Made by a program: the position numbers
In this document: positions 40,801-46,800 of the stretch, piece after piece
Layout: every line of letters starts with the position of its first letter
Position numbering within the stretch: position 1 is the first letter of the stretch
Assembly: GCF_057098645.1 (NCBI RefSeq)
Contig: NZ_CM169472.1
DNA length: 64,000 bases
Reading direction: 5' to 3' (one strand)

Positions 40801-43800
40801 GAGTCAGATTTCGTTTGCCTGATCCTGCCGTTAACTGATGAGACGCATCATCTGTTTGGCGCAGAACAATTCGCCAAAATGAAATCCTCCGCCATTTTCA
40901 TTAATGCCGGACGTGGCCCGGTGGTTGACGAAAATGCACTGATCGCAGCATTGCAGAAAGGGGAAATTCACGCCGCCGGGCTGGATGTCTTCGAACAAGA
41001 GCCACTGTCCGTAGATTCGCCGTTGCTCTCAATGGCCAACGTCGTCGCAGTACCGCATATTGGATCTGCCACCCATGAGACGCGTTATGGCATGGCCGCC
41101 TATGCCGTGGATAATTTGATTGATGCGTTACAAGGAAAGGTTGAGAAGAACTGTGTGAATCCGCACGTCGCGGACTAAGCCGCGACTGCGTGGAGTAAAG
41201 CCCGATAATCGCTCGGGCTTTTACTCTTTATTGGGTTGCAGTAACTGCTGTAGTCCAGGCCTGATTAAACGCCTGATGTTGTGCCGGTAATGGCGCAATC
41301 AGTTTGTTATATTCACTTGCCTGCTGTGAAGTCGGGAACTGGATGCCATTTGCTACAAAGCTCACCTGAGTACCTTGTTGGGCAATGTAGTCTCCAACCA
41401 TCACTAGTTGTTGCGTGAAAGTTTGTGCCGCCGGAATCAACGGTTGCAATGCATCAGCTGGCGTCGTTACCACTTTGGTGAATGCCTGATCAAAGACCGG
41501 TTTCAGGTCATCACTCTGTTTTAGCGCAGAGTGCGCAGCATCGGCCTGCAACTTCGCATTTTGCAGTTGTTGCGCCAGCACACCCAGCGAACCATTCATT
41601 TCACGCAGCGGACCGCTTTGCGTAACGTAATCCTGCGGTACGCGAATTGCGTTAACGCTGTCTACAACCGGGCGCAGACCGGAATCCATCGCCTGATTCA
41701 CCTGCTGAGAATAACCATACAGAATCGCGTAATCAGAGACAAAAGGACCAAACTGTTTTTTCTGATCGGCAGTCAGGGTTGGTAGACGTTCACCGCTACG
41801 CATCACTGTATTCTGCAGGAAGTCGATAAACGCTTTACGCTGATCGCCTTCTTTATCAAAACACCCACTCAGGCTAACTACCATTAATAACGCCGCAAGA
41901 GGCGCAAACCAGCGAGAGCAGGACTTTCCTGTCGCCATTTTCTTACTCCTTTCACCCAAAAAAAGCGCACAACGACACACGCGTGTCTGACGTGACAAGG
42001 ATAGTCCAGGACAGGCTTGCAGGATACCCTTTCTACGTAATCTTCCTGGTAAAATCATGGAGAAAATGAAACAAGGTTAATTTGTTGTTTCATTGTTAAA
42101 AAATGATATTGCCGTTGCCTTTTTTGTAGCCAGAGATTTACGCCTTCGCAGAAGGTTAGATTTTCGAAATCTTTACAAACCAGGAGTGGTTAGAGATATA
42201 TCGGCATTTATCAGATCGTTAGGTGGCTATAAGTCACGCTAAATGACTGGCTGAATCGAATCATAGCCAGAGCATGCCCTGACTTCACCCCGCTGTGTCT
42301 GCTTTTCCCGACTATTCTTAATGAGCTTCGATGCAATTCACGATCCCGCAGTGTGATTTGAGGAGTTTTCAATGGAATATAAAGATCCAATGCATGAGCT
42401 GTTGAGCAGCCTGGAACAGATTGTTTTTAAAGATGAAACGCAGAAAATTACCCTGACGCACAGAACAACGTCCTGTACCGAAATTGAGCAGTTACGAAAA
42501 GGGACAGGATTAAAAATCGATGATTTCGCCCGGGTTTTGGGCGTATCAGTCGCCATGGTAAAGGAATGGGAATCCAGACGCGTGAAGCCTTCAAGTGCCG
42601 AACTAAAATTGATGCGTTTGATTCAAGCCAACCCGGCATTAAGTAAGCAGTTGATGGAATAGACTTTTATCCACTTTATTGCTGTTTACGGTCCTGATGA
42701 CAGGACCGTTTTCCAACCGATTAATCATAAATATGAAAAATAATTGTTGCATCACCCGCCAATGCGTGGCTTAATGCACATCAACGGTTTGACGTACAGA
42801 CCATTAAAGCAGTGTAGTAAGGCAAGTCCCTTCAAGAGTTATCGTTGATACCCCTCGTAGTGCACATTCCTTTAACGCTTCAAAATCTGTAAAGCACGCC
42901 ATATCGCCGAAAGGCACACTTAATTATTAAAGGTAATACACTATGTCCGGTAAAATGACTGGTATCGTAAAATGGTTCAACGCTGACAAAGGCTTCGGCT
43001 TCATCACTCCTGACGATGGCTCTAAAGACGTGTTCGTACACTTCTCTGCTATCCAGAACGATGGTTACAAATCTCTGGACGAAGGTCAGAAAGTGTCCTT
43101 CACCATCGAAAGCGGCGCTAAAGGCCCGGCAGCTGGTAACGTAACCAGCCTGTAATCTCTGCTTAAAAGCACAGAATCTAAGATCCCTGCCATTTGGCGG
43201 GGATTTTTTTATTTGTTTTTCAGGAAATAAATAATCGATCGCGTAATAAAATCTAGTATTATTTTTGTGAAGAATAAATTTGGGTGCAATGAGAATGCGC
43301 AACGCCGTAAGAAAGGCGGGAATAACTTCCCGCCGAAGACCCTTACTCTTTCAAATTGCAGGCTAAAAATGCCGCCAGCTCATAACTCCCCTGTTTAATA
43401 TGCAATTCACACAGTGAATCTCTTTTCATCCAGGTGAAAAATAAAAGCGTGAAACAAATCACTATTAAAGAAAGCAATCTATATTTCTGCGGCATTCCCA
43501 GCCCCCTATGTTGATTTCCAACGAGTAAGAGGCTAACCTTATGGTGTCTATGCATAGAGGGGCAGTACACACTTTGATTTATAGTCAGGTGGGGCTTTTC
43601 TCTGTCTGCCTTTCGGTGAATACCTGAGACAAACAGTCTCAAGCACCCGTGGCTATTCTAGCTTAATAAGTTTGTTTCTTCTCCTTGATATAATCCTAAA
43701 AAAATCTCATAAAATTAATATATGAGATAATCTTTATTCAGCAGAAGATTATTAAAGGTTGCTGTATTATTTAGCGATAAAAAAAGCCTGCCAGATGGCA

Positions 43801-46800
43801 GGCTTTTTAATAACGGCGTTATTACTGCAACAGCGAAATATCCGCAACGCGCAGGAACAGTTCGCGCAGTTTCTCCAGCATGGTCAGACGGTTGATACGC
43901 AATTCTTTGTCATCAACCATGACCATCACTTTATCGAAGAAGGCATCGACCGGTTCACGCAGCTCTGCCAGTTCGACCAGCGCATCCTGGTAACGACCTT
44001 CCGCAAAGTACGGCTCCAGCTTGTCACGTAGCACCACAACCTGCATCGCCAGTTTAATTTCTTCCGGCTCTTTCAGAGTAGAGGCATTCACGCGATCGCT
44101 CAGCACTTCGTCAGATTTCGCCAGGATGTTAGATACACGTTTGTTCGCCGCCGCCAGTGCTGCAGCTGCTTCCAGGGTACGGAAGTGCGATACCGCTTTC
44201 ATGCGGGCATCGAAATCAGCCGGACGAGTCGGACGACGCGCCAGTACCGCCTGGATGGTGTCAACGGTATAACCTTCGTCCTGATACCAGGCGCGGAAGC
44301 GACCGAGCATAAAGTCGATAACATCATCAACGACGTTGGCATTAGTCAGCTTATCGCCATACAGACGCACCGCTTCTTCGGTCAGCGTTTGCAGATCAAG
44401 GTTGAGGTTCTTCTCAACGATAATTCGCAGCACGCCAAGTGCGGCACGACGCAGCGCAAACGGGTCTTTGTCGCCTTTCGGATGCTGACCGATACCAAAG
44501 ATACCCGCCAGAGTATCCATCTTATCAGCAATCGCCAGCGCACAAGCTACCGGGTTGGACGGCAGGTCATCACCGGCAAAGCGCGGCTGATACTGCTCAT
44601 TCAGCGCGACGGCTACGTCTTCCGCTTCGCCATCGTGACGCGCGTAGTGCATCCCCATAACGCCCTGGGTGTCGGTGAACTCGAAGACCATGTTGGTCAT
44701 CAGGTCACACTTAGACAGCAGGCCCGCACGGGTTGCGTGGTTAACGTCAGCGCCAATCTGTTCAGCAATCCAGCCAGCCAGCGCCTGGATGCGGTCAGTT
44801 TTGTCACGCAGCGTACCCAGCTGTTGCTGGAACAGCACGGTTTGCAGGCGCGGCAGGTTATCTTCCAGACGTTTTTTACGGTCGGTGTTGAAGAAGAACT
44901 CGGCATCAGCCAGACGTGGACGAACGACTTTCTCGTTACCAGAGATAATTTGCTGCGGATCTTTCGATTCGATGTTGGCAACGAAGATAAAGTTCGGCAG
45001 CAGTTTGCCGTCGTTCGCATACACCGGGAAGTACTTCTGGTCACCTTTCATGGTGTAAACCAGTGCTTCAGACGGCACCGCGAGGAATTTCTCTTCAAAT
45101 TTCGCGGTTAGAACGACCGGCCACTCCACCAGCGAAGCCACTTCTTCCAGCAGGCTTTCGCTTAAGTCAGCGTTACCGCCAATCTTACGCGCTGCTTCTT
45201 CGGCATCGGCTTTAATCTTCGCCTTACGTTCTTCGTAATCGGCGATGACTTTCCCGCGCTCACGCAGAATTTCCGGATACTGATCGGCGTTATCGATGGT
45301 GAATTCCGGCTCGCCCATAAAGCGGTGGCCGCGAATCACGCGATCGGACTGAATGCCCAGAATGGTTGCCGGAATGACTTTGTCGCCCAGCAGCAGGGTC
45401 ACGGTGTGCACCGGACGCACGAAGTGCACGTCGCTTGCACCCCAGCGCATCAGTTTCGGAATCGGCAGTTTCGCCAGCGAAGTCGCAACCATATTCGGCA
45501 GCAGTGCTTCAGTGCTTTCGCCCTTCACATGGGCGCGATACAGCAGCCATTCGCCTTTATCGGTAGTCAGACGCTCAGCCTGGTCAACGGTAATACCGCA
45601 ACCACGCGCCCAACCTTCTGCCGCTTTGCTCGGTTTGCCTTCAGCGTCGAACGCTTGGGCAATCGCCGGGCCGCGTTTTTCGATTTCACGATCCGGTTGC
45701 GCTTCCGCCAGGTTAGCTACTTTCAGCGCCAGACGACGCGGAGCGGCAAACCATTGAACGGTGCCGTGTGCGAGGCCTGCGTTATCCAGCTCCGCAGTAA
45801 AGTTCGCAGCAAAGGACTCTGCCAGGCTGCGCAGTGCTTTTGGTGGCAGCTCTTCAGTGCCGATTTCCACCAGAAAAGTTTTCTCAGACATAGCCGCCTC
45901 TTACTTATCTTTGTTGCACATCGGGAAGCCGAGGGCTTCACGGGAAGCGTAATATGCTTCTGCCACTGCTTTGGTCAGGGTGCGAATGCGCAGAATGTAG
46001 CGCTGACGCTCGGTGACGGAGATGGCTTTACGCGCATCCAGCAGGTTGAAGCTGTGGGCGGCTTTCAGAATACGCTCGTAAGCTGGCAGCGGCAGCGGAT
46101 TTTCCAGCGCCAGCAGCTGCTGCGCTTCTTTCTCGTACTGCTCAAAGCAGGTGAACAGGAAGTCCACATCCGCGTATTCGAAGTTGTAAGTGGACTGCTC
46201 CACTTCGTTCTGATGGAACACGTCGCCGTAGGTGGTTTTACCCAGCGGGCCGTCGCTCCAGACCAGGTCGTAAACGCTGTCTACGCCCTGAATGTACATG
46301 GCCAGACGTTCCAGACCGTAGGTGATCTCGCCGGTAACCGGTTTACACTCCAGACCACCAACCTGCTGGAAGTAAGTGAACTGCGTCACTTCCATGCCGT
46401 TTAGCCACACTTCCCAGCCCAGTCCCCAGGCACCCAGCGTCGGGTTTTCCCAGTTATCTTCCACGAAACGGATATCGTGGATAGTCGGGTCCATGCCCAG
46501 CTCTTTCAGAGAACCAAGGTACAGCTCCTGAATATTGTCCGGCGATGGCTTAATGACCACCTGGAACTGATAGTAGTGCTGTAAACGGTTGGGGTTTTCG
46601 CCGTAGCGACCATCGGTCGGGCGACGAGAAGGCTGAACATAAGCAGCCGCCATCGGTTCTGGCCCCAGCGCGCGCAGACAGGTCATTGGGTGAGAGGTTC
46701 CCGCGCCGACTTCCATGTCCAATGGTTGAACAATGGTGCAGCCCTGGCGAGCCCAGTAATCCTGTAAGGTCAGGATCAAGCCCTGGAAGGTCCTGGTATC

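What the first reader, a model, noticed from the sequence alone, without database searches (positions are those of the whole stretch)
43200..43821. hokA type I toxin locus appears uninterrupted (no IS150 between hokA and glyS)
A complete 50-codon Hok-family ORF lies downstream of cspA, and the sequence continues directly to the glyS terminator with no insertion-sequence ORFs. In K-12 MG1655 an IS150 copy (insJ/insK) sits at this locus and is thought to inactivate hokA. So this strain is not MG1655-like here and may retain a functional hok/sok-type module.
Basis: partly seen in the sequence, partly recalled or inferred. Interest (0 to 1): 0.3.

Follow-up and report, generated by a model that had tools for sequence, protein, structure and literature searches.

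The report
IS150-free but scarred hokA toxin locus
This is the well-known chromosomal hokA/sokA toxin-antitoxin locus of an E. coli O145:H28-type strain: it lacks the IS150 copy seen in K-12, as half of all E. coli do, but it keeps an 8-base stub of IS150 that removed the ribosome-binding site needed to make the toxin, so it is probably silent.

Summary
A 50-codon Hok/Gef ORF (hokA, 43343-43495, minus strand) lies between cspA and glyS, and no IS150 is present. MG1655 has IS150 here and also lacks 42 bp. This is ordinary and already published: 2831 of 5425 complete E. coli genomes have an uninterrupted interval, and IS-free hokA loci are reported in the literature.

The idea that the module may be functional is not supported. 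Other uninterrupted alleles, including E. coli C, O157:H7, E. albertii and a cryptic Escherichia clade, read AAAGUG-AG-GC upstream of the mokA AUG. That gives a GAGG Shine-Dalgarno like the one in R1 mok. The window reads AAAGUG-UGUACU-GC. The inserted bases recreate the first 8 nt of the IS150 terminal repeat, at the exact junction where IS150 sits in about 2500 other genomes.

I read this as a scar left by IS150 insertion and near-precise loss. It is confined to 28 genomes, mostly O145:H28. It removes the mokA SD and its pairing partners and weakens the SokA terminator stem. The Rfam score drops from about 120 to 99 bits. HokA also carries a sub-lineage I24K change. The native E. coli C allele is itself reported as unable to mediate post-segregational killing. 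Interest is low.

The parts
43343..43495 (-). hokA CDS, 50 codons plus stop, encoding a Hok/Gef membrane toxin. Codon 24 (43424-43426) is AAA (Lys), where all compared alleles have ATA (Ile).
   Evidence: ORF list. Pfam PF01848 at 79.9 bits. The I24K change is at 43425. The exact K24 protein is on about 30 public contigs, against at least 1000 for I24. Assembly GCA_029357705.1 is 100% identical to the window over 2553 nt.
43343..43555 (-). mokA reading frame: AUG at 43555-43553, then 20 codons in frame with and running into hokA. It is the leader frame whose translation is needed for hok translation in R1.
   Evidence: In-frame extension seen in the ORF translation. Position is homologous to the R1-type mok AUG in pairwise alignment. 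MG1655 annotates a truncated mokA pseudogene here.
43493..43648 (-). hokA mRNA 5' leader, from the inferred +1 G at 43648 to the hokA AUG.
   Evidence: Full-length Rfam RF01794 match at 99.4 bits. Native alleles score 119.6-124.9 bits.
43637..43648 (-). tac element (GGGUGCUUGAGA) at the mRNA 5' end.
   Evidence: Aligns with the R1-type GGCGCUUGAGG. It pairs with the fbi element in the MFE fold.
43591..43599 (-). ucb / anti-SD box (AAAAGCCCC).
   Evidence: In MFE folds of the native alleles it pairs with the GAGGC of the mokA SD. That hairpin is absent from the window fold.
43562..43569 (-). IS150-end scar. TGTACTGC equals the first 8 nt of the IS150 left terminal repeat (the first 7 nt are shared with the right repeat). 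Bases 43564-43569 (mRNA sense UGUACU) replace the native AG, destroying the mokA GAGG Shine-Dalgarno.
   Evidence: Alignments of 12 alleles, O157:H7, E. coli C, and E. albertii plus Escherichia sp. E1V33. IS150 junction AAAGTG|TGTACTGC in strain 504239. Pattern location.
43525..43535 (-). dcb-like box (UAGCCUCUUAC), the partner of the mok SD in the processed-mRNA structure. It overlaps the sokA promoter spacer and -10 on the other strand.
   Evidence: Conserved with the R1-type AUAGCCUCUUAC. The Rfam consensus structure pairs it with GAGGC; the window alignment shows non-canonical pairs there.
43511..43539 (+). Inferred sokA promoter: -35 TTGATT (43511-43516), 17-nt spacer, -10 TAACCT (43534-43539). 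In K-12, IS150 splits this spacer after 43527.
   Evidence: Positional homology to the R1-type Sok promoter TTGCGC-17-TATCCT. Not called by the generic sigma-70 scan. K-12 junction.
43546..43605 (+). Inferred SokA antisense RNA, about 60 nt. The 3' end matches the MG1655 sokA pseudogene annotation. The 5' arm of its terminator stem contains the scar.
   Evidence: MG1655 annotation. Predicted folds: -15.6 kcal/mol in the window versus -24.4 (O157:H7) and -21.3 (E. coli C). The start site is an inference.
43655..43660 (-). Inferred hokA promoter -10 (TAGAAT), 6 nt upstream of +1. No good -35 hexamer.
   Evidence: Read from the sequence. Same position as the R1-type TATGAT. Not called by the scan.
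43315..43334 (-). GC-rich hairpin just 3' of the hokA stop (GGCGGGAA-GUUA-UUCCCGCC).
   Evidence: Homologous to the R1-type GGCGGGC-GCAG-GCCCGCC.
43282..43294 (-). fbi element (UCUCAUUGCACCC), complementary to the tac element at the 5' end.
   Evidence: The MFE fold of nt 1-373 pairs nt 1-6 with nt 362-367, and nt 8-12 with the UCUCA immediately upstream of that. The same 5'-3' closure appears in O157:H7, E. coli C and the R1-type mRNA.
43180..43207 (.). cspA terminator hairpin. It is the only strong hairpin downstream of hokA on the minus strand and may act bidirectionally.
   Evidence: It is the end of the Rfam cspA thermoregulator match 42783-43210.
43781..43808 (.). glyS terminator hairpin, marking the boundary of the locus.
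   Evidence: Perfect 13-nt inverted repeat. The glyS stop is at 43822.

Best explanation
The interval is the chromosomal hokA/mokA/sokA type I toxin-antitoxin locus of an E. coli O145:H28-lineage strain. It has the full hok/sok architecture: a weak hokA promoter; a structured leader with tac, ucb and dcb boxes; a mokA frame running into hokA; a convergent SokA antisense gene inside the leader; and a 3' fbi box that closes the mRNA end to end. It carries no IS150, but it is not a pristine allele. An IS150-family element once sat at the hot spot AAAGUG^ in the leader and was later lost by a near-precise deletion across a 1-2 nt microhomology. The deletion left the terminal 7-8 nt of the IS (TGTACTG[C]) in place of the native AG. 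The scar destroys three overlapping signals. It removes the GAGG Shine-Dalgarno of mokA. It removes that sequence's pairing with the ucb and dcb boxes in the hokA mRNA. It also breaks the 5' arm of the SokA terminator stem on the other strand. In hok/sok systems hok is translated only through coupling to mok, so the predicted result is a transcribed but untranslated toxin gene, that is, a silenced relic. What is shown: absence of the IS, the architecture, the scar, its restricted distribution, and its derived state. What is inferred: the IS150 origin of the scar, the transcript ends, and the loss of translation.
For: Identity: Pfam HOK_GEF at 79.9 bits; Rfam RF01794 at 99.4 bits; annotated as hokA in all matching RefSeq genomes.

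No IS.

Architecture: element-by-element alignment to an R1-type hok/sok locus. The tac-fbi closure is predicted in the window, O157:H7, E. coli C and the R1-type mRNA.

Scar: the window and O145 read AAAGTG-TGTACT-GCCCC. Ten other alleles, including IS-excised ones, read AAAGTG-AG-GC. The outgroups E. albertii and Escherichia sp. E1V33 also have GAGG, as do R1 and the Rfam consensus.

IS150 link: the IS150 ends TGTACTGC/TGTACTGA abut AAAGTG in strains 504239 and 2D, and abut AAAGTT in K-12. The window's 14-mer AAAGTGTGTACTGC is identical to the 504239 junction.

Distribution: 28 of 5426 genomes carry the exact scar, and 19 of them are labelled O145. The window is about 100% identical to O145:H28 genomes over 22 kb.

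Consequences: the Rfam score is about 20 bits lower than for native alleles. The SD-ucb hairpin is lost. The SokA fold is 6-9 kcal/mol weaker. In R1, G105T or A106T in the GAGG mok SD and mok start-codon mutations abolish toxicity, and mok translation is required for hok translation (PMC9841398).
Against: There are no expression or toxicity data for this allele. SD-independent initiation at the mokA AUG, or direct initiation at hokA (a GGGGG/GGGA run lies upstream of its AUG), cannot be excluded. The exact precursor allele was not among the few loci I sampled: that would be IS150 at AAAGTG^ on the GCCCCUCUAUGCAU haplotype. The 8-mer TGTACTGC occurs twice in the window against 1.66 expected by chance, so the argument rests on its position and on it being exactly the indel, not on rarity. 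The promoters are inferred by homology only, and the generic scan called neither. The folds are MFE predictions. The native allele is itself reported as PSK-negative, so the scar may have silenced something already inactive.
Confidence: 0.7

Rival explanations
1. One reading: because IS150 is absent, this strain retains a functional hokA/sokA module, with the toxin translatable once SokA decays.
For: The 50-codon ORF is intact, with the family-conserved residues retained: C14, T16, L28, C29, E30 and E39, which correspond to R1 C16, T18, L30, C31, E32 and E41. The HokA CDS is toxic when overexpressed. The Rfam leader match is still above the gathering score. The tac-fbi pairing and both promoter-like regions are present.
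Against: The mokA SD is replaced by the scar. Single-base changes in the R1 mok SD already abolish toxicity. The SokA terminator stem is weakened. The pristine E. coli C allele is reported unable to mediate PSK or rifampicin-induced killing.
Confidence: 0.12
2. The 6-nt difference is an ordinary indel plus SNP, for example slippage in the GUGUG run. It is unrelated to IS150, and the resemblance to the IS end is coincidental.
For: The 8-mer is not rare on its own: 2 in the window against 1.66 expected. The neighbouring sequence is a short GT repeat, and variants with extra TG exist (TR01, PapRG-06-5, G47-1). No intermediate allele was recovered.
Against: The replaced bases spell the IS150 terminus exactly, in the correct orientation, starting at the very nucleotide where IS150 ends abut in alleles found in about 2500 genomes. 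The chance that a random 6-mer does this at a fixed position is about 1/4096. Slippage of GU repeats cannot create UACU.
Confidence: 0.1
3. The TGTACTGC-containing sequence is ancestral and is the IR-like target that attracted IS150 in other lineages. The GAGG alleles are derived.
For: IS3-family elements are known to insert next to sequences resembling their own ends (general knowledge, not tested here). Both IS orientations share this junction.
Against: E. albertii and a cryptic Escherichia clade carry GAGG. The downstream flanks of IS-bearing alleles read AAGTGAGGC, not TGTACTGCCCC. The scar is confined to 28 of 5426 genomes in one lineage whose sister lineage O157:H7 has GAGG. R1 and the Rfam consensus also have GAGG.
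Confidence: 0.03

Closest known systems
hokA/mokA/sokA of E. coli K-12 MG1655 (b4455, b4647, b4614)
   Same: Same chromosomal locus between cspA and glyS. The flanks are 97-99% identical, HokA is the same length, and the tac, fbi, ucb and 3' hairpin elements are shared.
   Different: K-12 has a 1443-bp IS150 inserted after the equivalent of window 43527, inside the sokA promoter spacer. It also lacks 42 bp covering the sokA -10, the SokA 5' part, the mokA AUG and the SD. The window has all of these except the SD, and has only an 8-nt IS150 terminus. HokA differs at several residues, including I24K.
hokA of E. coli C (IS-free allele tested by Pedersen & Gerdes 1999) and other native alleles (O157:H7, E2863, KMS2005, E. 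albertii)
   Same: Uninterrupted cspA-hokA-glyS interval and the same element order. This state is found in 2831 of 5425 complete genomes.
   Different: These alleles keep AAAGUGAGGC with the GAGG mok SD and score 120-125 bits with RF01794. The window has UGUACU in place of AG and scores 99 bits. E. coli C hokA is reported as not mediating PSK and not being rifampicin-activated.
hok/sok (parB) of plasmid R1 and R1-type IncF plasmids
   Same: Hok/Gef toxin fold family; a mok leader frame; Sok antisense transcribed from a promoter overlapping the dcb box; tac-fbi 5'-3' closure; a GC hairpin after the stop codon.
   Different: The window locus is chromosomal. The toxins share only the Pfam HOK_GEF domain match, and HokA is 50 aa against 52 aa for Hok. 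The promoters match the consensus less well. No GC-rich terminator follows directly after fbi. The mok SD is missing. There is no evidence of killing activity.
sokE::IS150 / hokE, and IS150-interrupted hokA alleles in natural isolates
   Same: IS150-family elements insert 2 nt upstream of the mok SD in both paralogues: hokA AUCA[AAG]^UGAGGC and hokE AUCAA[CCC]^UGGGGC. sokE::IS150 is reported in more than 400 isolates (PMC11551753).
   Different: Those alleles still carry the whole IS. The window carries only its terminal 7-8 nt.

Membership tests
Hok/Gef toxin family (Pfam PF01848) | Protein matches the HOK_GEF profile above the curated cut-off | tested here: met
   79.9 bits against a cut-off of 22, E=1e-22, profile positions 1-42 of 42.
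Hok/Gef toxin family (Pfam PF01848) | Family-conserved residues (R1 numbering C16, T18, L30, C31, E32, E41) | tested here: met
   HokA has C14, T16, L28, C29, E30 and E39. The list of conserved positions comes from bioRxiv 10.1101/2025.08.07.668861. I24K lies outside these positions.
[quoted passage not shown] | Structured hok mRNA leader (Rfam RF01794) | tested here: met
   99.4 bits against a gathering score of 59, over the full model length. This is about 20 bits below native hokA alleles.
[quoted passage not shown] | Overlapping mok leader frame with its own Shine-Dalgarno (GAGG) that drives coupled hok translation | tested here: not met
   The mokA AUG and frame are present (43555). The GAGG is replaced by GUGUACUG. 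No purine-rich SD lies within 20 nt upstream.
[quoted passage not shown] | cis-encoded Sok antisense RNA with a promoter in the leader and a terminator hairpin | tested here: inconclusive
   A homologous -35/-10 pair (TTGATT-17-TAACCT) is present and the 3' end agrees with the MG1655 sokA annotation. The generic promoter scan did not call it. The terminator stem is weakened: -15.6 versus -24.4 and -21.3 kcal/mol.
[quoted passage not shown] | Long-range tac-fbi pairing that closes the full-length mRNA | tested here: met
   The MFE fold pairs nt 1-6 and 8-12 with nt 355-367, as in the native alleles and the R1-type mRNA. This is a prediction only.
[quoted passage not shown] | Post-segregational or rifampicin-induced killing | not testable with these tools
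   Literature only: the native E. coli C hokA locus was negative. No data exist for this allele.
IS150 (IS3 family) insertion at hokA, as in K-12 | 1.4-kb element with insJ/insK between hokA and glyS | tested here: not met
   IS150 has no significant similarity anywhere in the window. The interval is collinear with uninterrupted genomes. Only the terminal 8 nt remain.

The most novel reading that the evidence does not exclude
The O145:H28 lineage once carried IS150 in the hokA leader and lost it by near-precise deletion, leaving a natural mok-SD knockout. At least four separate IS150-family insertion alleles fall within 2 nt of each other in hokA: two orientations, two haplotypes, and one element only 94.7% identical to MG1655 IS150. 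An insertion also sits at the homologous spot in hokE. Together these suggest one or both of two things. IS150 may recognise a conserved feature of hok leaders, namely the mok-SD / Sok-terminator stem. Or selection may repeatedly favour silencing of chromosomal hok genes, which would imply that native alleles are active enough in nature to be costly.
Probability: 0.3. Interest if true: 0.4.

Novelty: already known. Interest (0 to 1): 0.2.

Why it matters
As stated, the finding adds nothing new. IS-free hokA loci in non-K-12 strains have been known since 1999 and are the majority state. The useful correction is that "no insertion sequence" does not mean "intact". This lineage carries a small IS150 footprint that annotation pipelines miss: hokA is annotated as a normal toxin gene in all 28 genomes. 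The footprint probably disables toxin translation and weakens the antitoxin RNA. That matters to anyone counting "functional" type I TA systems in EHEC genomes. It also offers a natural mok-SD mutant for testing whether chromosomal hok loci are ever expressed. The recurrent, position-specific IS150 insertions in hokA and hokE are a modest lead on IS150 target choice.

Tried and rejected
1. The generic sigma-70 scan found neither the hokA nor the sokA promoter. I therefore rely on positional homology to R1 and flag both promoters as inferred.

2. Pedersen & Gerdes 1999 is not held in the library. Its results are cited second-hand.

3. I tested whether TGTACTGC is rare enough to be significant alone. 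It is not: 2 observed against 1.66 expected. The argument was rebuilt on position and indel identity.

4. I considered whether the scar could be the ancestral IS150 target. This was rejected by the outgroups and by the flanks of IS-bearing alleles.

5. I looked for evidence on the effect of I24K in the R1 mutational scan and the Hok diversity preprint. That position is not discussed, so the effect is left open.

6. A literature search for IS150 insertions in hokB/sokB in the long-term evolution experiment returned nothing usable. That recollection is not used as evidence.

7. Locating hokA in E. coli C took four region fetches because of a chromosomal inversion.

8. Sub-threshold Rfam hits at the glyS terminator (STnc370, Phe/Trp leaders and others) were dismissed as generic terminator matches.

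
Full report
**1. What is there**

The window carries cspA (42943-43155, +) and glyS (43822-45891, -). In the 666-bp spacer between them, the minus strand encodes a 50-residue protein (43343-43495). It matches Pfam HOK_GEF at 79.9 bits against a cut-off of 22. The 156 nt upstream of its AUG (43493-43648, -) match Rfam RF01794, the hok leader/Sok model, at 99.4 bits against a gathering score of 59. RefSeq annotates the same ORF as hokA in every matching genome. The window is about 100% identical over 22 kb to E. coli O145:H28 genomes such as RM12761 and RM13516. A 2553-nt stretch around hokA is 100% identical to assembly GCA_029357705.1.

**2. Comparison with MG1655**

MG1655 has IS150 (insJ/insK, 1443 bp) at 3720633-3722075, between hokA and a 35-nt sokA remnant. 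With the IS removed, the two sequences align at 97-99% identity. MG1655 additionally lacks 42 bp, window 43528-43569. No IS150 sequence is present anywhere in the window.

**3. How unusual is this?**

It is not unusual.
- Of 5425 complete E. coli genomes with a match, 2831 (52%) have the interval uninterrupted.
- 1635 genomes carry the K-12-type IS150 junction.
- 902 genomes carry IS150 in the opposite orientation as a simple insertion with a 3-bp duplication.

The literature already records this. K-12 hokA is described as inactivated by an insertion element, and IS-free hok loci exist in other strains (Pedersen & Gerdes 1999, cited in PMC7232551; PMC11551753). PMC7232551 explicitly reports an IS-free hokA in AIEC strain NRG857c.

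**4. Anatomy against the R1 paradigm**

Alignment with an R1-type hok/sok locus (L004) and RNA folding recover the expected parts:
- a -10 TAGAAT (43655-43660) 6 nt upstream of a +1 G at 43648;
- tac (43637-43648);
- a 5' hairpin and tac stem;
- ucb/anti-SD AAAAGCCCC (43591-43599);
- the mokA AUG (43555), in frame with hokA;
- dcb UAGCCUCUUAC (43525-43535), overlapping on the other strand a Sok-type promoter TTGATT-17-TAACCT (43511-43539);
- SokA at about 43546-43605 (+), whose 3' end agrees with the MG1655 sokA annotation;
- a GC hairpin after the stop codon (43315-43334);
- fbi UCUCAUUGCACCC (43282-43294), which pairs with the 5' end in the MFE structure, as in the R1-type mRNA.

The promoters and transcript ends are inferred. 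The generic promoter scan called neither promoter.

**5.

I aligned the window with five other uninterrupted alleles, five IS-bearing alleles with the IS removed, O157:H7 and E. coli C.
- Every allele that retains this stretch, except O145, reads (mRNA sense) AAAGUG-AG-GC(CCCU/UACC)CUAUG. This gives GAGG 7 nt upstream of the mokA AUG. The arrangement matches R1, where GAGG at positions 105-108 is the mok SD (PMC9841398).
- The window and O145 genomes read AAAGUG-UGUACU-GCCCCUCUAUG.
- E. albertii and a cryptic Escherichia clade also have GAGG. The window state is therefore derived.

The inserted bases create TGTACTGC. This is the first 8 nt of the IS150 left inverted repeat, and the first 7 nt are shared with the right repeat. 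It begins at exactly the nucleotide where IS150 ends abut the flank AAAGTG in other genomes (strain 504239 left end, strain 2D right end).

A deletion from just inside the IS end to just past the duplicated target and the AGG reproduces the window sequence exactly. The deletion would span a 1-2 nt microhomology (G or GC).

The 8-mer on its own is not statistically rare. The argument rests on three points: position, orientation, and the fact that these bases are precisely the difference from native alleles.

The exact scar is present in 28 of 5426 genomes, 19 of which are labelled O145. Three genomes have the scar with an extra TG or a related variant (TR01, PapRG-06-5, ET350). One genome (G47-1) has a TGTG insertion that keeps GAGG. 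I did not sample the exact precursor allele.

**6. Predicted consequences**

- The mokA SD is gone. In R1, mok translation is required for hok translation. G105T or A106T in the SD, or mok start-codon mutations, abolish toxicity.
- In folds of the native alleles the SD pairs with ucb in the closed full-length mRNA. This hairpin is absent from the window fold. The Rfam alignment shows broken SD-dcb pairs. The score is about 20 bits below native alleles: 99.4 versus 119.6-124.9.
- On the plus strand the scar sits in the 5' arm of the SokA terminator stem. The predicted SokA stability falls from -24.4 (O157:H7) and -21.3 (E. coli C) to -15.6 kcal/mol.
- hokA's own SD and AUG are buried in a long-range helix in all folds, so independent initiation seems unlikely.

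These are predictions, not measurements.

**7. The toxin itself**

HokA here differs from the common O145/O157/E. coli C protein by I24K (A at 43425). The K24 protein is on about 30 public contigs, against at least 1000 for I24, and is in none of the complete genomes. The family-conserved residues are all retained. Position 24 (R1 T26) is not among them. The HokA CDS is toxic when overexpressed. I cannot say whether I24K matters.

**8. Function of native alleles**

E. coli C carries the native uninterrupted allele. According to the summary in bioRxiv 10.1101/2025.08.07.668861, its hokA locus did not mediate post-segregational killing and was not activated by rifampicin. Even without the scar, then, functionality is doubtful.

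**9. Verdict**

- The comparison with MG1655 is correct.
- The inference that the module may be functional is not supported.
- The locus is a known one in a common IS-free state. It carries a lineage-specific IS150 footprint that most likely silences it.
- Novelty: already known. The footprint is a small new detail.
- Interest: about 0.2.

Noticed in passing
window 43569/43570 equivalent; loci L001, L003, L005, L006, L007, L018: IS150-family elements occupy the hokA leader in about 47% of complete E. coli genomes. They occur in both orientations, on two leader haplotypes, within 2 nt of each other (AUCA[AAG]^ or AAAGUG^). One element (L003, annotated as ISKpn8 family) is only 94.7% identical to MG1655 IS150. 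This looks like a true insertion hot spot rather than one inherited event.
   Followed up: partly
L028 2336-3778 (strain Ec-050-T5-ESBL); L027 (MG1655 hokE): IS150 in sokE/hokE sits at AUCAA[CCC]^UGGGGC. This is the position homologous to the hokA hot spot, 2 nt upstream of the presumed mok SD. About 449 of 5404 genomes have a split hokE leader, which is consistent with PMC11551753.
   Followed up: partly
window 43548-43561: Two hokA leader haplotypes (GCCCCUCUAUGCAUAGAC and GCUACCCUAUGCCUGAAC) differ at 6 positions within 14 nt, around the mokA AUG and the SokA 5' end. The rest of the locus is about 97% identical. The outgroups carry the second haplotype. This could reflect diversification of the antisense recognition region or a conversion tract.
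   Followed up: no
window 43295-43366 (+): A 23-codon ORF antisense to the 3' end of hokA. It is annotated as ysaE in K-12 and as a hypothetical protein in other genomes. It has no Pfam match.
   Followed up: no
window 42372-42662 (+): yiaG, upstream of cspA, gives weak Pfam hits: HTH_3 at 26.7 bits, and MqsA_antitoxin at 26 bits, which is below that family's cut-off of 30.
   Followed up: no
L008 about 1059-1506 (strain NRZ88308): One genome has an insertion of about 390 bp directly after the cspA terminator. It carries an ORF annotated as yidD (membrane protein insertion efficiency factor). hokA itself remains intact.
   Followed up: no
L029 14825-14845 (E. albertii NBRC 107761): In the E. 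albertii type strain the hokA leader is native up to AAAUCAACACAG. It then diverges (TGTATGGGT...) just before the hokA SD, possibly because of another insertion. The held DNA ends there.
   Followed up: no
L011 288-441 (strain A31): An otherwise uninterrupted hokA is annotated as frameshifted because of an extra G in the run at the Gln-Gly codons. This shows that IS-free alleles can also decay by point mutation.
   Followed up: no
window 17611-17676 (+), 25593-25673 (+), 25769-25842 (-): Other Rfam hits at gathering threshold in the window: the rdlD antitoxin RNA (from the ldrD/rdlD type I TA system) at 81.7 bits, naRNA4 at 67.8 bits, and a tRNA.
   Followed up: no
window 43704-43728: A perfect 8-nt inverted repeat, ATCTCATA-N9-TATGAGAT, lies in the AT-rich stretch between the hokA promoter and the glyS terminator. 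Its function is unknown.
   Followed up: no
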